From Chrysomallon squamiferum (Eukaryota > Animalia > Mollusca): 64,000 bases of DNA. The notes beneath the pieces were generated by a model, which worked only from the letters and a program-made list of their open reading frames with translations, did no database searches and had not been told where the DNA came from. The number at the start of each line of letters is the position of its first letter. The first letter of the stretch is position 1. Of this stretch, positions 16,208 through 57,492 are shown piece after piece. Both the position numbers and the translations under genes were made by a program. The stretch lies in assembly GCA_012295275.1 (NCBI GenBank), contig CM022672.1:15004001-15068000 (forward strand), read 5' to 3'.

Positions 16208-19204
16208 AGCTATATCAGCCACTTTTTCAATGTAAGCATTACTGCATACCGCACATTAAACGTACCAGCAACGGACTACTGCATTCCAACGTGATCTGAA
16301 ATACACCGGCTATATCAGGATATCCCACGCCTACGACGACGTCTTTTGGTTACGTAATGTGTTTGTTGAGGACGTAGTGCACACGACGTGGTTTTGTAGG
16401 TCTACGTGGAAAATAGAAACATATTCTAGATATGTTAATGATCTATATCCATCTATCTATCTCTCTGTTTGTTTGTTTGTTTGTTTGTTTGTTGCATTTT
16501 CATCGTGACTATTTTTATACTGTGTTCGGTTTTACTACCACCACCACCACTACTACTACTACTAAAACTACTACTACTGCAACTGCTGCTACTACCATGA
16601 TTGTTATTATTATTATTACTGTTGTTGTTATTATTATTATCTGTATATCGATATAATATAAACAAATGATAAATTATTCATTCTCTTTTATTTATTACAT
16701 AATTATTACAATGATTTCGAATAATGTACAGTTATTTTATTTATAAGTTAACTATAATTAATCCACTTGTTTTTGTCCCATTCTTTGTTGTTTTTAATCA
16801 CCATCGCTGTTATTGTTCTTTTGATTGTTTACAGTCATTATTTTGTTATTTAGAAAAAAGAAATTACCCACACACACACGTACGCACGCACGCACACACA
16901 CGTACACACACACACACACACACACACATACACACAGTAATTTGGTTTCATACCAGATTGTCACATACTGCTTTTTAATTAAATAATATTATAATTTTTA
17001 CTCTCTAGGATCTAGAATATCACGAACCCACGCACTCACTGACACACACACACACACACAGACACATGTATTTATAAATACCCATGTTAATCCAGTTTTT
17101 GTAATTACTTACTTATTTTTGATGAATGAATATTGCTCTAAATATTTTGTTTAGTTGGATGTTTGTTTTCTGTGTTTTCTGTTTGTTTTTGTTTGGATTT
17201 TGTTTTTGTTTTTTTCAAATTTCTTTTCCTCTTTACCATTTTCGTTTTCCTGTGAATAACGAATATTCGTATGATTTTTGTGCGTTATTCTTACACGAGT
17301 TATCTTTCTTGTCACTGGTAATGTTGACTTGTAATTCTGTTTTCTTTTCATTTTAGATTAATCCGAAAAAACAGGTAAAAGCCACAAAAAAAAAAAACAA
17401 ATAAGAAGCAGCAGCAACAATGAGAATAAACTGTAAAAATATAAAATTAAATATTGCAAGAATTAATAAAGAATGGATATTTTAATAAATAAAATACTCT
17501 TTTCAATACGTTAATATCAACTTTTTTTACTATGTCTTTTTCTTCTTCTAAGATTCTTTAGCGAACTGTTTTTCATTGCTGCTAGTGACTGTCAAAAGTG
17601 CACGTGTTTTTCTCTCTCCTGGAAGGTACAGTAACGATTTCTTATAAAAATGCAAAGGAGACGGTTTTTATTAAGAATTGCCAAGTACTCAGTAATTAAT
17701 TTGTTTGTTCTTGTGGTGTAAAATAACAAAAATAAATAAATAAATAAAATAAATTAAAATAGAATAAAATATAAAGCTACCTCAACTATTACTACTGCTA
17801 CTGCCACTGTAACTATTGCTACCACTATCATTACTGCTATTATTACTACTGCTTCTACTAGTACAATTATTATTACATTGTTATAACTACATGTCTATTA
17901 CAACCACTACTATTACTACTACTACCACAGACAACAACAACAACTGCTACTACTTCTACTATTACTACTACTTATTATTGTTGTTGTTGTTATTATTATT
18001 ATTATTATTATTTTATTATTATTATTATTATTATTATTATCATCATCATTATACGTATTTTACTTATTATAAATCACATTAGAACTGAAATCAGAGGAAA
18101 ATAATATAACAAAATGCTAACAATTAAAAAATATATTTTTCAAAATTTTTATTTGCCACTTACTTCGAAAAATCGCACATAATCTTGGCTTTTTTAAAAT
18201 AAATACATTTAATGCGATTGAACCATTTTCTTCAGCAATGGCGACAAGAAATATTGCGAAACAATAACGAAAATTATAACACATTTGTATAAATGGACGG
18301 AATCTTGATTAACTGATATCAGACAGGTATTTAAAAATCTTTAATAAAAAAAATGTTTGATCGATATACAAAAATAAAATGCGAGAACGTACGTTAATTC
18401 AATTAGCTGAAAAATAACCGAAAATAATATATTTATATTAGAATTATAATAGATTTCAAGAGCAAAGCTCATGCCGTTTAATTTCAAAAGTATTCAACAA
18501 TTATCTATTCATTGTTTTGTTTTGTGTGTTTGTTTGGGGTTTCTGTTTTCCGATAAGCTCAGCATAGATAGTTAATTGTATTACATTACGAGAAAAAGGT
18601 TTGGTGATTTTGACATTTTAGGGTATGCTGTACAGACTATAAATATAAATAGTGTTCCATCGAACTAAACTCTCCTGAGATGCGATAGAATAAGAGTAAC
18701 GGCCCTTGGTTATAATTTGCAAACAGCGACTCCATCTTCTCTTCCAGACACTGGGGAAATTAAAAGGCTGAATATAAATGTTAATTTAAATATTAAATTT
18801 GTTTAAGGATTATATAAAAAAAAAAAAAAATTAAATGATATATTGTCTTGTTAGTTCCTTCTTTTGTTTTGCTTGCCATCAGTATTGATCTAATTACCAC
18901 TTTGATCATTAATATAACCATTATCACTACTGGGTTGGTTTTTCTTTTGTATTCTCTGAGACAGACTGTGTACAATATCAGCATCAGCTTAATACCACAC
19001 CTAACAACATTTGACGATTAGTTTCAGTTTTACGTTTTTTTCCTGACAAATTAAAATATCTTGTGAACTAATCAACCACCTGTCCTGTGCTCTCACTAAC
19101 TGTACAAGCACGTACATCCTGGGCTCTATATAAACGTATCCCAATGGACGTGTTAAAAAAAAAAAAAAAAGTACAAGGAAGAAATAAAACAAATGTCTTA
19201 TACA

Positions 19205-19751
19205 CTAAACAAACGTATCTCCTTCTTTCGTGTAGGACTTCTCATAAACCAGCGAGCTCAGGTACTCAACAAGTCCTCCGAGCTGGTAAAACTCCGCCTC
19301 AGTAAGTAGTTCCCGCCACACGTTCTCGCTCTGCGGAAGGACACCTTCCTTTATGCACCCGTCTCGCAAGTAGTTCAGAATGTAGCGGAAGTGAGTGCCG
19401 TCGCGGTCTATGAAGTAGCTTCCGTCCGGTTCTCGCTTCAGCTCGTGACGTCCGCTGAACATGGCTGCCAGCATGGAATGAGGGTCTTTGGTGAGCGTCA
19501 GTATGGACGTGGTGAACTGGTGGCCGCCGATGTCCAGCTTGATGCGGCTGTCCTGGATTCTGTAGATTTCTGACATTCTCTGGAAGAAAACAAAATGGCG
19601 GAAAATCGATTACTGAATAATGCTTGTTGGCGAGTCATATTAAAATTAGAATTGTAGACACAGAATGGGGTTTTAAACTATAGGAGGTCATGTTTAGAAA
19701 GAATTAAAAATGATAGTATTTTCTATAAATTATTAAATATCAAACATAAGC

Positions 19752-19790
<39 letters not shown>

Positions 19791-20409
19791 GTTTTTTGAT
19801 GTTGAAGTCCTGTGTTGATTTAGTGTAGCTTTTGTTTTAAATCTGTCGTGAATCACAGAAACAAAATGTTTTAGTCTACTTATTATTTTTGCTCGATCTT
19901 GTAATATGTCTTTATTATTACTTCTAGTTATTTAAATTCATTTATATTTTATTTTAATGTTGAAGTAATAAAATATGTAATCAGCTAAAGCATAGTAGAA
20001 TCATTGTTATTAAAATACGGTTAAACGTAGTCATTAAATTTTGTTAGAATAGTCAGCAGTTAGAGTATAGACATTTTAGTTCATGTTACTATTATAGTAA
20101 CTCTCAGTGACACAAAATTAAACATAATTAGAGAAAAACTAATAAAAATCTGTTAAGGTGTTAAAAAAAATACTCATGAGTTCGCCGTTCGTTTCCACAT
20201 TCTTGCTTGTGTTTGTTATAGTTGATGATGCGGTAATATTTTGTGGCTTTTTTTTATTTTTTTTGGTTTTTTTTAAATTGTAATTTGCTTGCTATTGAGG
20301 TAACTTTATACATATATCCTTTCATCAATTTAGTAAATATATTTTTACTTTTTAAAATATATTTGGTTATTTATGCAGTTTTTATAATAATAATAATAAT
20401 AAATATGTA

Positions 20410-20460
<51 letters not shown>

Positions 20461-22110
20461 GTATGTATGTATATTATGTACATATATATATCTTTTCTCT
20501 AAATTAATTTTTTGATGACACCAGTGTTACGTACAAAACAAAAGATGACACATCTGCACACCATATTTTCATCAAGTTATACATATGTTTCTTTCAAAAA
20601 TTATTATTTCACTACTTCTTGTATTTTATACATTTTGAAACAATTTTGAAATTATTATTTCACTACTTCTTGTATTTTATACATTCTGAAACACTAGTAG
20701 ATTAAACAATGGTAACGTTCCACTGATATTATTTATTTTCTCTTTTACATCTGGCATCATCACTAACACACATATCGACATTCTAGGCTGTCATTTCGCA
20801 TTTTGGTTCAAAGAACTCGGGGAAACAGATATGTCTTCCAAGTAACTTGGCCAACTCTGTGAACATATTCTTTGCAGTTCTGAATCCGAAATTCTGCCAC
20901 GAAACGTTGGAAAATGGTATAATAGTTTTAGATAAATATAAGATTAGATGTCTATTTCACTATTGTTAAACTTTTTACTGATATTACTGTTAAAGTCCAA
21001 CAGTAATGAAACAGAAACTTGAATGTGTAAGAATTGTATTTAGGTCGTTGCTGGTCATTACTTTAAATTATCTTCTCATTTCAAAACGACACTTTAATCT
21101 CATTGAATATATGTTATCAGTGTTGGTATATATGTGCATATTTTTATTTATTTATTTGCTTGTTTCTTTTTTTCTTTTTTGTTAGTTTGCTTGCTTCCTT
21201 GTTCAGTGTATTTATTTATTTATTTATTTATTTATGCGTGCAGTTACAGCCGTAGAGAAGCTGTAAAAACTTTGCTATTACTGTCTTTCTTTCTTTTTTT
21301 TCACTTAAAACCGGGGCGCGAGACCTTCCTGTTTGTGAGATTTTACGAGCTTAATGCCCCAAAGTCTATTTTAAGACGCGTGTATTTTAAACAAGCTGTG
21401 TCTTACAGCGATAACGATAGATACACACATATGTATTTTGTTAGTTGGTTGATTTTTTCCCCTTAATATACGAGTTTTTAATTCAGATCAGATGTGTATA
21501 AATTACATCTGCTCTTATCATTACTGCTACAGACTGTGTATATCAGTTATTATCCATGTGCAGTGATTTCATATACTCACAAAGAATGGATATTTTACAT
21601 ATAATATATATTACATATTATATATTATTATTATATACATACATACATACATACATACATTTATTTTTAAGACTTGAATTTAATTTCTTTAACTGACTGG
21701 ATTATAACAACACGTTAATTAATGAATTAATATAATCCCGTCAGTTCTAAATATAAAAAATTCAATTTTTAAATTATTATTATTATTTTTTAAACTTTTG
21801 TGTCACTGTGTTAGCTTTCTTACTTTGATCTCCGCATCAAATCTCTCTCGTTCTTTACGTAACTCCTCTTTTTCCCGTTCAAACTCCTCCTGTTTCTGTA
21901 GTAATGACCTTTCAGCAGTTTCGATCTTTTCACTGTACTGTTTTTCCAGTTCTTGGCGTCTGTTTTCATATTCAGCAATCGTCTGGTCGCACTGGCAAAT
22001 AATAAAAAGATGATAATATTTTTAGATATTAATGTTGAAACGTCTCCGAAAGAAACTGACACTTACAGATTATTTTACTTGTTAAGGTGAAAAATTATTT
22101 TCATTTCCAA

Positions 22111-22164
<54 letters not shown>

Positions 22165-23505
22165 TTATTTATTTATTTTTTATTATTATTATTATTATTT
22201 TTTTTTTTTTGTGAGAGTTATTATCATTCACACCAAATTATAACAATACTGTTATAAAACATTTGAACGACGCCATTTTACTTTTTAAAAAAGTGGAGAG
22301 GCGTGACGTCATCGCGTACACGACGGACTGAGAAGGGTATGTTTGTGACGTTAGAAGAAACTGTAATACTCTGTTAATAATAATATTAGTACTACTACTT
22401 CTATTACTACTACTAAGTTCTAGTACTATTATTCTAACTTCTACTGCTCTAATTTTGGCTTGCTTACTTTTACAATCTCTGCGTTTAGGTGTCGTTCCTT
22501 TTCCTGCAGTCTGATGTTCAGTCTGTCCGTTACTGTCTCTCTGTCGCACATTTCACGTTCTCGTTCACGCACGTGATTTTCCCGATCATCCACGTACTCA
22601 CGAGCCCTCATGACGAAACCACTGAAGTTGGCATGAAGTTTTTCCAGGAACGTTTTCCCTATCTGTTCAATCTGTTCGTGTATGTCAATCTCCCACGCAC
22701 AGGTGACGTCTTCGAAGAGGTTGTGCTCGTAGAGCGGACCCACGGGGTAGTCGTAGTTGGCTTCGACGTTTTCGGGACTGTGACTCCACACCCCGTCGCC
22801 GTCGTTGACTTCCAGAGCGCAGATGGGTCTGGTGAAGTCGGAATCGATTTCCAGACACTTGCCGATTGTCCGGTCTCTGTGAAACAGCGCCTTCCAGTCG
22901 CTATCGACATCGGCTTTCGCCCACAGGCGCGACGCGTGACTTTTCGGTATCCTGTACAAGTCTCGTATCTTCGCCTCGACGTGGCCCACCTTTTCCATCT
23001 TGCTGAATCTGACGTTGTGAAAGTCTTCGAGCGGCGAGGTTGTCAGCATTACTTTGAACGAGTTGAGGTTGTGTTCGATTTCCGCGGCGCGCGAGTAGCC
23101 GTACACGATCAGCTTCATCGGCTTGTGTCCCTCCGCCAGGCCGTACCACTGCACGAGCATCCGCCAGGCGTCCTCGTGCACCGCGTCCACGGTGTGCGCG
23201 TAGTCCCGCCTCGTCAGGATGGGCCCGGGCGGAGACGTGACGCGCTTCTGGTAGTACTTTCGCGTGCTCGAGATGCCGAGGTACTTCTTCAGGTGTTCAA
23301 TCCATTCGGCGAGCACGACGTACCAGTACTCCGCCTCGACGAATTTCCTGTCGAACAGCTGCTCGAGGATCGCCTTCTGCGCGACAACGTCGGGACAGGC
23401 CGGACACGCTGGCTGGGCGACAGAGGGCGCTGTCGCCATTGCCGTACCGACAAGCCGCTCCACGGTAATCTCGCGATGTGTTGACGTCATGAAACAAATT
23501 GGCAT
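19205..23505 (-). CDS. DUSP-UBL (USP4/11/15-type N-terminus) + coiled coil + KCTD-type BTB/POZ protein, 504-526 aa, 3 coding exons
   Basis: Exons 23505 (or Met at 23439)-22468, 21991-21824, 19579-19205; both introns GT-AG, phase 0. DUSP motifs WYVVLAEW..LKKY, PPGPI, VHEDAWRMLVQWYG. UBL motifs RFSKMEKVGHVEAKIRDLYRIP..SRLWAK, LEVNDGDGVW. E/R/K-rich coil. BTB motifs IKLDIGGHQFTTS, FIDRDGTHFRYILNYLRDG, LLTEAEFYQL. Confidence 0.88.
20599..20693 (+). repeat. ~51-bp tandem duplication in intron 2 of the DUSP-BTB gene
   Basis: AAATTATTATTTCACTACTTCTTGTATTTTATACATT(T/C)TGAAACA occurs twice in tandem. Confidence 0.85.
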
Positions 23506-23565
23506 AACTTGCCCTGCTCAAAGTAAAGAGAGAGAGAAAAAATAGCCAAGTAACGATAAGCAGTG

Positions 23566-23720
23566 GTTGGCATGGTAACCAGATATCCCATACATCTGTT
23601 AATCGTAGTTCAAACCAGAGTATAACAAACATGTACCGTCGTCTTTCACACACACCCCCCCTCCCATATACAACACACCAATACTCCCAGTGATATAAAT
23701 ATAACGGTTGCCATAGGAAC
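23566..23720. promoter_or_regulatory. Two RFX X-box-like palindromes upstream of the DUSP exon
   Basis: GTTGGCATGGTAAC (23566-23579) and GTTGCCATAGGAAC (23707-23720) resemble the X-box consensus GTTRCCATGGYAAC. Confidence 0.45.
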
Positions 23721-26700
23721 GATATTATGGCTGACACGTGTAAGTTTTTTGGCGAGGGCTTGCCAAATGCGCACTTAGGTCCGGTTCCGTTTCTAAAGGT
23801 TATAAATAGCTCTGGAAATCTTCTTCTTCACGTGACCTGCGTGTTTACTAACAGAGGTTAACAGAAGAATATGAAGTTTTATTTTCGCACCGAACAAGAT
23901 AAAGAACCGTTTAACGTGGAATTTAAAAAAAAAGCTGGCAACCTGACAACGCCCATTTATTTCAGTCTGTGGAACACTTTCTTATTTTAGATTTCTTTGT
24001 TAAAAAAATAAATAAATAGAGTTCAGTTGGAAACACGTTCTTCAAACTGGTTCATTATAAACTGTGGTTATTTCAATAAAGTGAAATATCACGTTACAGT
24101 ATTCGCCAACATTGTGCTTGGTAGTCAGCTCTCAAGCAGAACATTTTAGTTGGTGAATAATTATTTTATAAGTAGGCCTATAATGGTAGGAGTCTAAATA
24201 GACTTATCATATATCCAATGAACTTCTGGCGTTTTCTCCGAATATTATTACAAAGACAGTTATTTTAAAATCTTAATGAGAAATATTATCTAAATTTCAA
24301 AACTTCTCTTTTTATTTTTTATTATTATTTTTATTTATTTTTTGTTACATTTTTACATTGTTACTTTCGGTGAACTTTGCAGTAATAAAATATTTATATT
24401 CTCTTTAGATCTCGGATTAAAAACACAAAAAGTATGAATTAAAAAATAAATAATTTCAAACAAATACTGATTAAGCAAAATATGTTTGTATTCCTGTCCA
24501 GTTAATTGTTATTTCATATTTATCACTAATTATCTCCATGACATAATAGTTATAATTAATAATTAAACTGTAAGAATATTTCTGCAAACTTAATCTTAGA
24601 TCATCGCTGTGTATATATCATAGATTAACGTCAGTAATAGTGCTGTAAATGCATCTTTCATTCATTTTGAAAGCCTACACTGTGCGAAGATATCGGTTTC
24701 GACCACTGTTTTCTTATACAATAAATACTACGACAATCTGAGGTAAAGGTATTCATTTCTAAAGAATGTATTGTTTGAAATATCACCGATAAGATAAAAC
24801 ATAATTATCAATAATTTTATAACAGTCACATTCCATTCGAGTTTGATTAAATAAAATAATAATAATAATAATAATAATAAAAACCCAGTTTAAATATTTT
24901 ATTAATAAAGCTAAATATCATTTGTCATTAACAGAACTACAACAGAGAAAAACGAATAACAATAAGAAAGAAAGACAACAGGAAGGAATGAAAGAATGAA
25001 ATTAAAAACGAAAAAAAAAAAAAAAAAAAAAAAAAAAGTTAATTTAAGCGAAAAGGAAAGCAAAAGAGAAAGAAAAAAGAATCGAAGGAAAGAATAAATG
25101 CACGAAAGTTTAATTAAAGAGAAATCGATATAAAGAAAGAAAAGAAGGAAGAATGAAAGAGAAAACGAAAGAACGAAAGGAAAAAGACAGTACCTGATCA
25201 CTTGACACTCCACGTTACGTTATGAACAAAAAACGATTTTTGCAAGTTGAATCGCATTAACTCGTATTTTATATAACCAAAATACACGTGATAGCTTTCG
25301 AACGAGGCTGTATACAAAATGACGTCACCAGGTATTGTAGGAGAATAAACAAACAGGCAGGTAAAAAGATCGAGGCGTCTGGTTCCCACGTGGTTCGGAT
25401 CACCTGTGTGTTTACAGCAGGTTGCCCGGATCGCCTCAGCTTTGTAATTTACTTGGCTATCGAAGAGGAAAACATTCCACTTGACGTTTAGAATGAGAAA
25501 AAAAAAAAAAAAAAATATGCTCAGGAAATAACATTTATCCAGACTCGTAGAAAGTGCTACTATCTATTAAGAATAAAATCTTCTATTTGTATCTTAGCAA
25601 CAGAGGAAAATGTGGTGCATGTTTGTTTTTAGTAGTATTTTTTTTTTTTTTTTTCTGTTAGTATAGAAAATAGAAAATAAATGAATATTTCTAAAACAAT
25701 GAACTGAGTATACAGGACTGGACATTTTTCAATGTTAAAATACGAAAGACTTTTTAGTTGATAATGATTAATGTGGCAAGAAATTAAAAAAAAAAAAATG
25801 AAAATAAAAATGTTTTTGGCAAGTTTATCAGTAAAATGTAAATAGTCCAGATGTCAAAATAATTTTAATTCAATGTTTTTTACGACATCGTAAATATGAT
25901 TAAAGATGCGATGCCAAGCATCTTTTATATTCATCTTTCGCTGAAGAGATATGATCTTGTGACCCTCTGCTTGTCAGGCCAGTTATCTACGTATGTGAGA
26001 GTCAAAGTACATGACAAATTACAAAATATACTGATTCTAGTTAAGGATATAATTTTATTTCAAATAATAAAACACTTTAGATCATAGGTGTATTATAGGA
26101 TACAATACATCATGATAATAGTAAGTATAAATAGTTCGGCTGTGTGGACGAAGCTCATTAAACGAGAAAACCAGACACAAATTCGTACATCAAAAGCGCT
26201 GTCTGCGGTAACATTTAACCCCGTTTTTTACTTAGACAATTATGTCATCGAAACATTCGCTCGGAGAAAGTATAACAATCAAATAACATAACAAAAGTGA
26301 AAGAAGCTAAACAATCTAATTGTAACATTAAAAAAAAAAAAACGTAATAACTCGGTGTCTGTTCTATTTTTAGACAACTCCATTACCATGGTAACCAACT
26401 GGAGAGAGGATGTAAAGACGGCAGGAAGTTCTTAAACTTAAAGTATTCTTATATTTAGTTTCTCTCGACTTGTTCTTAGGTTTAAATTAAAAAACGTGTA
26501 CACAAAAAAAGTTACAGGATGTTTTGGTTTGGAGACGAACGTTTACTGGATTAGACAAAGATCTCAAAGTGCAAAGCGTTGGTTTTGTTTGCAGTTTGGA
26601 AAATCGAGAAGTCGTGTTAATGGCGGACGAAATCAGGCACTTTCTTTGAAGATATTCATTACGGGTCAGTGGCGATTTTCAGCGTCTCGGGTTTATTTTG

Positions 26701-27659
26701 TATTTATGTTTATTAATGTTAAATGTAATCCTTTAGCAATCTAATTTATGAGTAAATAGTCGTTTGTAGTTGATGTTAACATAAAATGCTTTACAGAAAA
26801 AGAAAAAAAAATCATCAAAGTTTTTTATTTATTTTATTAAGAGATTAATTAATGCTGTACCGTTTGTGCTTTAAAGTTTCATGGGAGAGAACTCCAATGT
26901 TTTTTTCTGTTATGAAAATACTATAAATATAACAAAATAATTATCACTGCTTAATTTTTAGTACAGAATGCATTTTTAGTTATCGTACGTACATATATAT
27001 ATACTCTCATTTATATATATAAAATGTATACATTTGTTAATATTAATTATGCCTAAGAAACTGTACCAACAACAAAAACTTAAAACACCAAAATAACAAT
27101 AGCAACCCGTGACAGCTTATACTCGTTTCCATTGTTTTCCATACAGTTAAGTGACTGAAAACATATAAAGAACAATATGATTAGATTTAATTTTACGCTA
27201 TGAACCACAGTAAATTATAAGTTGCATTAGATCACCTAAAAGAGGGTCACGTCACTAATGGGTTCCAGAAGGGATTCAATAACTGTGGGGAGGGAATAGC
27301 TCTGCAGAAGGGGATTTTCAGTTTAGAGATACTCGCCAAATAATCCCTTTTATCTTTTAAATGCTTATGATACTATCTTTTTTTTTTTTTTTTTTTTTTT
27401 ACTATGTACAAAAGTGAGAAAAAGAAAGAGAGATGAAGAGAATATTCATATAAATTATACATGTAAAGGATGTATGTGAATATATATATATATATATATC
27501 GGTGCTAAAATTTGAAATGTATTTTTCATCCTATTACATTTTGACCACACGTCTTCTATCCCCAGTGCGTCCATTTGCTTTTAACCCAGCACTGGAGTTA
27601 AGTATCTGCTTACGTGTATAAACAAACTGCAACAACCTTAATTTTTTTACAGATCAGGA

Positions 27660-29235
27660 ATGGCTTCGGACGAAACTCTTACAGTGTGGCATCACTACGA
27701 TCCTCCGACCCACTGTGGGGACGAACGCTGCAACAAGCTCTTTCTAGATTTTCTCTTAACCGTTGTGATGCCCAGTGGACTCGGAGTTCTGCTCGCCTTT
27801 TCACTTGCCGTCTTCATGTGTTGTTCAGGCACGAAGAGGTAAACTCGGTGTTTGTCTTAAAGGCGCTTTCACACTGGGTGATTTATTTATAGAGATACCG
27901 ATTAAGCTGTATTGTTTGTTATGTGTGTTGTAAAAACACGTAACAGCTAGAGCGAAAAAATAAAAACAAATAAACAAAACAATAATTATTAATATAGTAT
28001 GATATGATATTAATATAATATTAATATAATATAATATAATATAATATAGTATAGTATAGTATAGTATAGTATAGTATAGTATAGTATAGTATAGTATAGT
28101 ATAGTATAGTATAGTATAGTATATAATATACTATACTATACTATACTATACTATACTATACTATATTATATTATACTATACTATATTATACCATACTATG
28201 CTATACTATACTGTAATGTAATGTAATGTAACGTAATTATAATTATAAATATAAATTTATTTTTAATTTTTTAATTTCAGAAAACGAAAACATGAGCCAG
28301 ACGAGTATGTAAAATTGTTAACATTATTCCTACATACACTGAATTATGGATTTTCATCAAATGAGAAACAAAAATGTTAACTTTAACAATTATATTATTT
28401 TATTTTATTTATATATTATTTATTTATTTATTTATTTGTTTAAGTAAGTAAGTAAAATCCATAGTCATTTTTGAGAAGAAAAAAAAACCCAGCTTTGGTG
28501 CGTTCGATTTGCTGAGTTGGTTTAACTCTCGAAAACAGCTGTTCTGCTATTACTTGCAAATTAAAACGAAAATAAAAATAAATAATAACAATTAGCAGTT
28601 TGTCTTTATTTTTGAACACTCAGTTTCCAGAATCAGCTTCGGCGCGAGATTTCAAAAACATTTAAAACTTATCATTTCAGTCCACAGTACAACAGGTACG
28701 ATTCGGTGAGAAGAGCTTCCCTGACCCTCCGTCAGATGTCCAAAAAGAGGGACACGCCCCTGATGGGTCACAGGAGCGGATCCATGACCCTCGAGAGGGA
28801 CCACATATACAGAAGAGGTTTCCGCCCGAGAGATACGTGCCAGTCGGCCCCTGGGACCCTACAAAGGTTTGTTGTGTCGTCTGCAAACGGACATTTTTAA
28901 AATTACGCATGTTTGGTTTCGAAAATAAACGTTTCATTCAGTATGCACGTCTTTATAAATACTATAAATTTTTGTTTGAAACGTCATGAAATTAGTATCC
29001 ACATATCATATTATATCATGAGGTGTAGTTATATACATTTTTTTTTTTTGTAAATTAAGGCTTAATGGTTCGTAAGACGAATGATCTTCTTTTTGCTGCA
29101 GCTCTTTTAGTTCCCGTTCCAACAAGTGCTCCTCCTATTTATCTAAAGTTCTTGGTGCGCAGTCTTGTATTCAGTCTCCTAATATAACTGCGTGTTGTTA
29201 TTACTTATTTATAATCTAGCCTCTTTTTTATATTT

Positions 29236-32088: not shown

Positions 32089-46489
<14,401 letters not shown>

Positions 46490-56762: not shown

Positions 56763-57492
56763 TACTCTCCCAAAAAAGAAACGCAAAATGGTTGATTTCT
56801 TAGTTAACTATTGTAAACTGACACATATCGATGTACAAACCATGAATATAATGACATTTGGTGATTCAAGCGTATAGCTTTTGTTACAGTCAGCAAAAAG
56901 GCTATGATTGTGTTTATTAGCCAAAACGTCCCCACATGCAAACAACATTACCAGTGCATGTGCATGTGCGGCACATGAAACTTGAATACGAGGGTTATAA
57001 AAATGCAAGGTTTTCGAATACTTCTGTTCCTTATTTTTGTTCTGACCCAACATCAAACAAATGTCACGACTGAGTGAACCGCAACGAAACGATGCCATCG
57101 GCCGTGTACAAGCTGGCGAATTTTTCTCGGCTGTAGCCCGGGGGTTCCATGAATCCCCAAGCACCATCTTGAGATTGTGGTATCGGTTCCAGCAACACCA
57201 AACAACACGTGGCAGTCCCAGATCAGGTAGACCACGTGTAACCACCAGGGCCCCAAGACCGCTACATACGGGTACTTCATCTACGGGAAAGAACCACCAC
57301 AGCAACCGCTACTGCTTCAGCAATACCAGGTTTGTGTAGAATAGACAGTGTGCAATCGTTTACACGAGGCAGGTATTCGAGCCTGACGGCCTGTAAGAAG
57401 AGTGGTTTTGACTCAACAACATCATCAACTACGACCTCTGTGGTGTCAAGTGCACAGAGTCTGGCCTCAATTACGATGGTTTAGTGACGAGT
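56763..57492 (+). mobile_element. 3'-truncated Tc1/Tc3-like transposon with a pseudogenised transposase
   Basis: TIR-like TACTCTCCCAAAAAAGAAACGCA after (TA)n. ORF from 57061 reads MSRLSEPQRNDAIGRVQAG...RSGRPRVTT, then frameshifts to QDRYIRVLHLR and NRLHEAGIRA*RP, ending at WFSDE (first Asp of the DDE triad). Confidence 0.9.

What the first reader, a model, noticed from the sequence alone, without database searches (positions are those of the whole stretch)
19205..23505. Deubiquitinase recognition module (DUSP-UBL) fused to a KCTD-type BTB domain, with no catalytic USP domain
Seen: the large exon encodes a USP4/11/15-like DUSP-UBL tandem. The USP catalytic domain (Cys box GNTCFMN) is absent. 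In its place are a long coiled coil and a C-terminal T1/KCTD-type BTB, joined by two clean phase-0 introns. Known: DUSP-UBL mediates partner binding in USP4/USP15 (e.g. SART3); many KCTD BTBs oligomerise and recruit Cullin-3, and they are usually N-terminal. Inference: a DUB's partner-binding module rewired into a possible CUL3 E3 adaptor or an oligomeric decoy, reversing the sign of ubiquitin regulation. I know of no characterised protein with this architecture.
Basis: partly seen in the sequence, partly recalled or inferred. Interest (0 to 1): 0.8.

Follow-up and report, generated by a model that had tools for sequence, protein, structure and literature searches.

The report
Deubiquitinase binding module on BTB scaffold
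A gene conserved across molluscs and an annelid joins the partner-binding end of a ubiquitin-removing enzyme, without its catalytic part, to a BTB domain that likely docks on the Cullin-3 ubiquitin ligase, so it likely tags proteins with ubiquitin instead of removing it.

Summary
Three minus-strand exons joined by GT-AG, phase-0 introns give an open 526-aa frame: USP4/15-type DUSP-UBL, a predicted ~145-residue helix, and a C-terminal KCTD7-like T1 BTB, with no USP catalytic motifs. It aligns without gaps (489/526 identical) to a Gigantopelta aegis RefSeq model. It belongs to a conserved, apparently undescribed family: gastropods, bivalves, octopus, the annelid Owenia, a second clade of unnamed paralogues, and a Saccoglossus protein of the same layout. 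Six of eight KCTD7 residues that contact CUL3 are kept or conservatively replaced across the 34 family BTBs checked. The SART3-binding hairpin of USP4/15 is lost (0 of 59), which argues against a SART3 decoy. Best reading: an oligomeric CUL3 substrate adaptor that reuses a deubiquitinase's interaction module (~0.6). CUL3 binding and the splice junctions in this species were not tested directly. DUSP-UBL also turns up fused to RING/TRIM/Sina domains in several lineages, although a 2014 paper calls DUSP exclusive to USPs. New variant of a known kind.

The parts
22468..23505 (-). Coding exon A (aa 1-346): N-terminal tail, DUSP, UBL, linker and start of the long helix
23110..23397 (-). DUSP domain (about aa 37-132); the DUSP-UBL linker lacks the SART3-binding GLFVKH motif
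22783..23058 (-). UBL domain, Pfam Ubiquitin_3 (aa 150-241)
19565..22719 (-). Long predicted helix / coiled coil (about aa 263-407), spread over three exons; 47% charged and no Pro in aa 271-405
   Evidence: (helix 279-423 in homologue P0002, offset 16)
21992..22467 (-). Intron 1, 476 nt, GT-AG, phase 0
   Evidence: ORF calls P0001 and P0055 leave the alignment at the same residue
21824..21991 (-). Coding exon B (aa 347-402), coiled coil
19580..21823 (-). Intron 2, 2244 nt, GT-AG, phase 0; position conserved in homologues
   Evidence: (L001 has GT..AG at the same codon)
19205..19579 (-). Coding exon C (aa 403-526 and stop)
19271..19543 (-). T1/KCTD-type BTB (BTB_2). Best solved relatives KCTD7, KCTD10, KCTD13. 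M438, M442, R446, H447, D460 and F499 align with KCTD7 CUL3 contacts
23514..23560 (-). Pyrimidine tract and AG 8 nt upstream of the ATG: likely acceptor of an upstream non-coding exon (inferred)
   Evidence: sequence

Best explanation
The gene encodes a DUSP-UBL / long-helix / C-terminal KCTD7-like BTB protein with no protease domain, and it likely works as an oligomeric Cullin-3 substrate adaptor: the BTB is predicted to self-associate and likely binds CUL3, while the DUSP-UBL at the far end of the helix would capture substrates. Shown: the architecture, its conservation, and descent of the DUSP-UBL from the USP4/11/15 type. Predicted: BTB-BTB oligomer, long helix. Inferred: CUL3 binding, substrate capture by DUSP-UBL, and ubiquitination of partners that differ from those of USP4/15.
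For: The BTB's closest solved relatives are KCTD7, KCTD10 and KCTD13 (E 1e-20 to 2e-17), ahead of KCTD1, 15 and 16. PMC5664961 and PMC10856315 (passages) list the first three as CUL3 binders and the others as non-binders. KCTD7 contact residues named in PMC10856315, mapped through the alignment, in 34 family BTBs: M76 M 34/34, M80 M 34/34, R84 R 34/34, H85 H 33/34, D98 D 34/34, Y131 Y/F 34/34. The alpha2-beta3 loop aligns without gaps to KCTD7/10/13, while KCTD1/15 need an insertion and carry a Pro there; PMC4431850 shows this loop decides CUL3 binding. Self-association of residues 330-535 of the Haliotis homologue, 4 copies: score 0.42, best of 3 controls 0.00; the runs share at least 52% of contacts; pLDDT at least 65; confident contacts lie only in the BTB. 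The mark was reached by 21 of 30 solved self-pairs and 0 of 23 single chains in microbes, and by 17 of 29 and 0 of 30 in eukaryotes; KCTD oligomers are solved, so the pass may be from memory. DUSP and UBL are more conserved than the helix (Octopus 67% and 66% against 47%), as expected of a binding module. DUSP-UBL without UCH is also fused to RING, B-box/TRIM coiled-coil or Sina domains in 18 of 82 proteins scanned.
Against: PMC10856315 says binders and non-binders cannot be told apart well by overall identity, and KCTD14, the nearest paralogue of KCTD7, does not bind. PMC4431850 says the alpha4-alpha5 aromatics are not sufficient. Two KCTD7 contacts are not kept: R65 is S in 34/34; D74 is D in 12/34 and N in 14/34, and H in this protein. 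D98 lies in the FIDRDG motif that non-binders share. No substrate is known. A rigid helix of about 20 nm (145 residues, simple arithmetic) might hold substrates far from the E2.
Confidence: 0.6

Rival explanations
1. A CUL3-independent oligomeric scaffold, like KCTD1/15/16 or the Kv T1 domain: the BTB only multimerises and the helix displays several DUSP-UBL heads for avid binding to a complex or membrane protein.
For: Loss of CUL3 binding has happened repeatedly among KCTDs (PMC4431850, abstract and passages). R65 and D74 equivalents differ. Self-association is predicted without CUL3. The long helix suits a tether.
Against: The M..M.SGRH loop of KCTD7 is almost invariant in 34 family members and largely kept in 40 more distant ones (M76 35, M80 39, R84 33, H/Y85 37), which is easier to explain if a partner such as CUL3 constrains it.
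Confidence: 0.27
2. A decoy or competitor of the animal's own USP4/15, soaking up its partners such as SART3.
For: The DUSP-UBL fold is kept; an aromatic residue sits in the F127 column in 15 of 15 family rows; invertebrates, including a limpet, keep an intact single USP4/15 (PMC4624187, passages).
Against: FVK[HQ] is absent from 59 of 59 family sequences; V128 and H130 are kept in 0 of 15 rows; R40 is E/D in 15 of 15. The linker is three residues shorter, as in USP11, which does not bind SART3 (PMC4914101). The family's DUSP-UBL lies on long branches away from the USPs, unlike a mimic.
Confidence: 0.08
3. A gene-model artefact: DUSP-UBL and BTB exons belong to separate genes, or this is a truncated USP15.
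For: The junctions were not confirmed with reads of this species. 21 of 52 hits carry no BTB call.
Against: 29 of 52 hits carry BTB_2 plus DUSP and/or UBL in one protein. Ten full-length ones lie on Logan contigs only 152-910 nt longer than the coding sequence, which leaves little room for introns. Most BTB-less hits are ORF calls that run into an intron at a GT-coded Val; 11 of 21 truncated proteins examined do so at the intron-2 position. L001 has all three parts in order.
Confidence: 0.02

Closest known systems
USP4 / USP15 / USP11 (DUSP-UBL deubiquitinases)
   Same: N-terminal DUSP-UBL tandem with the same fold (E 2e-15 by sequence; Foldseek E 9e-17 for a homologue's model).
   Different: No UCH catalytic domain; SART3-binding hairpin replaced and shortened; long helix and BTB follow instead.
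KCTD7 and KCTD10/13/TNFAIP1 (CUL3-binding KCTD adaptors)
   Same: T1-type BTB with the MLAAMFSGRH loop and the alpha4-alpha5 aromatic; predicted BTB self-association.
   Different: The BTB is C-terminal and there is no KCTD C-terminal domain; the putative substrate module is N-terminal, about 145 helical residues away.
SPOP (MATH-BTB) and LZTR1 (Kelch-BTB) CUL3 adaptors (recalled, not from a call)
   Same: Substrate-binding module placed N-terminal to the BTB.
   Different: They use long-form dimeric BTB/BACK domains rather than a T1-type BTB, have no long helix, and use other substrate modules.
Plasmodium Kelch protein, PDB 4yy8 (Kelch13; its coiled-coil/BTB/Kelch layout is recalled)
   Same: T1-type BTB (E 1.6e-12) preceded by a coiled coil.
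   Different: Its Kelch propeller is C-terminal; it has no DUSP-UBL.

Membership tests
USP4/11/15 deubiquitinases | N-terminal DUSP-UBL tandem | tested here: met
   (the Pfam DUSP score alone is below the gathering cut-off)
USP4/11/15 deubiquitinases | UCH catalytic domain with Cys, QQD and His boxes | tested here: not met
   no Pfam hit in the exons; no motif in six frames of the window; no PF00443 in 52 of 52 hits of 190-606 aa
USP4/15 SART3-binding DUSP-UBL | G[LM]FVKH beta-hairpin linker of full length | tested here: not met
   0 of 59 family sequences; three residues shorter (PMC4914101)
KCTD proteins | T1-type BTB (BTB_2) | tested here: met
KCTD proteins | BTB at the N-terminus followed by a variable C-terminal domain | tested here: not met
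   BTB spans aa 415-505 of 526
KCTD proteins | BTB homo-oligomer (tetramer or pentamer) | tested here: inconclusive
   4-copy model of a homologue passes, 0.42 against 0.00, possibly from memory of solved KCTDs; stoichiometry untested
CUL3 substrate adaptors (CRL3) | CUL3-contact residues in the alpha2-beta3 loop and alpha4-alpha5 hairpin | tested here: inconclusive
   6 of 8 KCTD7 contacts kept or conservatively replaced, 2 not; sequence alone does not separate binders from non-binders (PMC10856315)
CUL3 substrate adaptors (CRL3) | Physical CUL3 binding and substrate ubiquitination | not testable with these tools
   no CUL3 sequence among the session's results; no assay

The most novel reading that the evidence does not exclude
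An ancient bilaterian class of CUL3 ligase adaptors, kept in spiralians and a hemichordate and not found in vertebrate or arthropod records by these searches, that was built by grafting the substrate-recruiting module of USP4/15 onto a coiled-coil/T1-BTB ring. It is the oldest of several independent captures of DUSP-UBL by ubiquitin-writing machines (TRIM, RING, Sina), which would make DUSP-UBL a mobile targeting module traded between erasers and writers.
Probability: 0.3. Interest if true: 0.72.

Novelty: new variant of a known kind. Interest (0 to 1): 0.5.

Why it matters
DUSP domains have been described as found only in USPs (PMC4243247, 2014) and their general function is still called unknown (PMC8125482, 2021). 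A conserved family that carries DUSP-UBL with no protease separates its binding role from its role in catalysis and offers a direct way to find DUSP ligands. If CUL3 binding holds, it is a KCTD-type adaptor with inverted topology and a deubiquitinase-derived substrate module, conserved across molluscs (including oysters, scallop, octopus and the schistosome-host snails Biomphalaria and Bulinus) and hidden under names such as 'uncharacterized', 'KCTD7', 'FIP2-like' and 'interaptin-like'.

Tried and rejected
No whole genome is held for this window, so paralogues and the animal's own USP15 and CUL3 could not be searched. Four RNA runs of one study hold 0.26-0.34 of the sampled words of 19000-24000; the three coding exons make up 0.32 of that stretch and exon A alone 0.21, but no reads were laid, so this is only a hint and says nothing about junctions. 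A BTB-only tree (47 rows, 119 columns) was unresolved and cannot decide one origin against several. Hydrophobic periodicity of aa 271-405 peaks weakly at 3.6 rather than 3.5, so a canonical heptad coiled coil is not shown; the helix may partly be a charged single helix, and the 4-copy model gave no confident contacts there. The JGI metagenome scan gave only 2 loci from 474 pattern matches. The taxa of the second paralogue clade could not be named: none of its looked-up members carries a species name, and the ESM Atlas returns only the one mostly molluscan cluster of 50 members. Earlier scan findings: none, by words or by sequence. The idea of a species-specific or recent fusion was rejected.

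Full report
Observation. The minus-strand exons 23505-22468, 21991-21824 and 19579-19205 join through two GT-AG, phase-0 introns (476 and 2244 nt) into a 526-aa frame with no internal stop. Pfam finds Ubiquitin_3 (150-241), a sub-threshold DUSP (59-133; 24.1 bits against 29.3) and BTB_2 in the last exon. PDB sequences of USP4, USP15 and USP11 DUSP-UBL match residues 33-241 (best E 2e-15), and the BTB matches KCTD7, KCTD10 and KCTD13 best. Six recalled USP catalytic-box patterns are absent from all frames of the window. An AlphaFold model of the Haliotis homologue P0002 (mean pLDDT 74.5, pTM 0.45) has DUSP-UBL, one helix over residues 279-423 and the BTB; Foldseek ranks USP15/4/11 DUSP-UBL first and KCTD BTBs next.

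One gene. The joined protein aligns without gaps and 489/526 identical to Gigantopelta aegis XP_041369374.1, so the window is probably from a related gastropod. Of 52 homologues of exon A (190-606 aa searched), 29 carry BTB_2 together with DUSP and/or UBL, 31 carry BTB_2 and none carries UCH; 23 rows have a species name: 22 molluscs (gastropods, bivalves, Octopus) and the annelid Owenia. Ten full-length homologues lie on Logan contigs only 152-910 nt longer than their coding sequence. Of 21 truncated homologues examined, 11 break off at the position of intron 2 with a GT-coded Val and 2 at the position of intron 1; metagenome locus L001 has GT..AG at the intron-2 codon and all three parts in order. 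The junctions were not confirmed with reads from this species.

Breadth. A profile of 24 sequences against 1.84 billion representatives gave 183 hits at E up to 0.001, of which 150 were listed. I scanned 82 of the 144 new ones, chosen as the longer or better-scoring, with Pfam: 19 have UCH (true USPs), 11 have BTB_2 plus DUSP and/or UBL, 18 have RING, B-box, TRIM coiled-coil or Sina domains without UCH (13 with a RING call), and a few have PARP/WWE, kinase, PRY-SPRY or an N-terminal BTB. One DUSP-UBL-helix-BTB protein is from the hemichordate Saccoglossus (XP_006813504.1). A further search (108 hits) showed a second set of unnamed paralogues, of which I used 39 plus Saccoglossus. Named RING/TRIM fusions come from Lymnaea, Saccoglossus, Ptychodera, two Pelobates frogs and two fishes; some may be merged gene models.

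Descent. In a DUSP-UBL tree of 69 hand-picked rows (199 columns, LG+G4), the window's family (15 rows, 100/99) and the paralogue set (17 rows, 100/100) form one side of a starred branch (100/99), apart from USPs; Saccoglossus falls among USP4/15-like rows without a supported place; the 16 other fusions need 11 changes, at least 5 forced by starred branches. With 32 rows, holding Saccoglossus with the two sets is not rejected (p-AU 0.513), which does not show a clade, and the tool warned that long branches meet. The Saccoglossus helix aligns without gaps over 125 residues to the family's helix profile (34-38 bits; 300 shuffles at most 1.0; TRIM-type helices at most 9.6), but helix-BTB proteins without DUSP-UBL also score, up to 58 bits, near the BTB junction. 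One bilaterian origin is therefore allowed but not shown; a second fusion onto a shared helix-BTB module is equally open. The BTB tree was unresolved.

Mechanism, BTB end. PMC10856315 (passages) names KCTD7 residues R65, D74, M76, M80, R84, H85, D98 and Y131 at the CUL3 interface. Mapped through the alignment (constant offset of 8), 34 family BTBs keep M76, M80, R84 and D98 in 34/34, H85 in 33/34 and Y/F131 in 34/34; R65 is S in 34/34 and D74 is D in 12, N in 14 and H in this protein. The alpha2-beta3 loop, which decides CUL3 binding in a KCTD11/12 chimera (PMC4431850, passages), aligns without gaps to KCTD7/10/13 and not to KCTD1/15. Against this, the same papers say that identity does not separate binders from non-binders, that KCTD14 does not bind, and that the aromatic hairpin is not sufficient. 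KCTD BTBs form tetramers or pentamers and 5:5 complexes with CUL3 (PMC5664961, passages). A four-copy model of P0002 330-535 scored 0.42 against a best control of 0.00 (runs share at least 52% of contacts, pLDDT at least 65), with confident contacts only in the BTB; the mark was reached by 21 of 30 solved self-pairs and 0 of 23 single chains in microbes and by 17 of 29 and 0 of 30 in eukaryotes, the calibration used two copies, and solved KCTD oligomers mean the pass may be from memory. CUL3 itself was not modelled.

Mechanism, DUSP-UBL end. USP4 binds SART3 through the linker hairpin GLFVKH; F127 and V128 are required, and USP11's linker, three residues shorter, does not bind (PMC4914101, passages). 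The family's linker is three residues shorter, FVK[HQ] occurs in 0 of 59 sequences, V128 and H130 in 0 of 15 rows, and R40, linked to ubiquitin exchange (PMC4624187, passages), is E/D in 15 of 15; only an aromatic at the F127 column remains. Yet DUSP and UBL are well conserved (Haliotis 77/72%, Octopus 67/66%, Owenia 49/51%, against 51, 47 and 30% for the helix), which points to a new, fixed partner.

Best explanation and rivals. Most likely (0.6) an oligomeric CUL3 adaptor whose DUSP-UBL heads bind substrates; then a CUL3-independent scaffold (0.27); a decoy of USP4/15 (0.08); an artefact (0.02). Architecture, conservation and descent are shown; oligomer and helix are predicted; CUL3 binding and ubiquitination are inferred.

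Known or new. It fails membership of USP4/11/15 (no catalytic domain) and of canonical KCTDs (BTB not N-terminal), but it works most plausibly like KCTD7/10/13; SPOP and LZTR1 (recalled) are precedents for a substrate module in front of a BTB. Databases hold the proteins as uncharacterised or under misleading names, and the ESM Atlas has a 50-member, mostly molluscan cluster with these three Pfam families. Eight searches of the open-access library listed no paper whose title or abstract start describes the architecture; three-term and four-term searches with DUSP and BTB gave 0, 1 and 0 papers, and the single hit (PMC8125482, passages) mentions BTB only in a reference. PMC4243247 (passages) states that DUSP domains are found exclusively in USPs. 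I read these seven papers as keyword passages only, no supplements; subscription journals and InterPro/CDART were not searched, so a mention in a domain-architecture survey or a supplement is possible.

Verdict. A real, conserved and apparently undescribed domain architecture: a new variant of BTB-type CUL3 adaptors, with the ligase role plausible but untested. Interest 0.5.

Noticed in passing
proteins (e.g. P0065, P0066, P0068, P0075, P0085, P0092, P0104, P0171): USP15-type DUSP-UBL without a catalytic domain fused to TRIM RING/B-box/coiled-coil, IAP-like RING or Sina domains in fishes, Pelobates frogs, hemichordates and Lymnaea; also to PARP/WWE, kinase, PRY-SPRY and an N-terminal BTB. They fall at several places in the tree, suggesting repeated capture; some may be merged gene models.
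   Followed up: partly
P0325, P0329, P0330, P0331, P0095 and cluster members: Divergent paralogues of the family are called as full-length single ORFs on genomic contigs of 0.15-4.4 Mb, so they may be intronless. P0330 and P0390 share a contig length (431,276), as do P0350 and P0213 (2,351,568), which hints at linked paralogues.
   Followed up: no
P0385 (Saccostrea echinata), P0386 (Patella caerulea), P0215-P0227: Proteins with the same helix-plus-C-terminal-BTB end but other N-termini (Pro-rich with a small Cys/His motif) or tandem helix-BTB repeats: a wider group of C-terminal T1-BTB proteins.
   Followed up: partly
window 33810-34640 and 37225-37440 (-): Exons of an animal haem peroxidase (Pfam An_peroxidase, E 2e-71 and 2.5e-11).
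   Followed up: partly
window 27642-27839 and 28616-28897 (+): Exon-like frames with a transmembrane segment and a cytoplasmic tail that resemble alpha/epsilon-sarcoglycan (recalled); no Pfam hit at E 0.1.
   Followed up: partly
window 57046-57481 (+): Broken frames resembling the N-terminus of a Tc1/mariner transposase (recalled); no Pfam hit for the first frame.
   Followed up: partly
window 21824-21991 (-): The middle exon has much lower third-position GC (0.41) than the other two coding exons (0.73 and 0.69).
   Followed up: no
window 23514-23519 (-): Tandem AG acceptors (GAG CAG) just upstream of the start codon; the upstream exon and promoter were not located.
   Followed up: no
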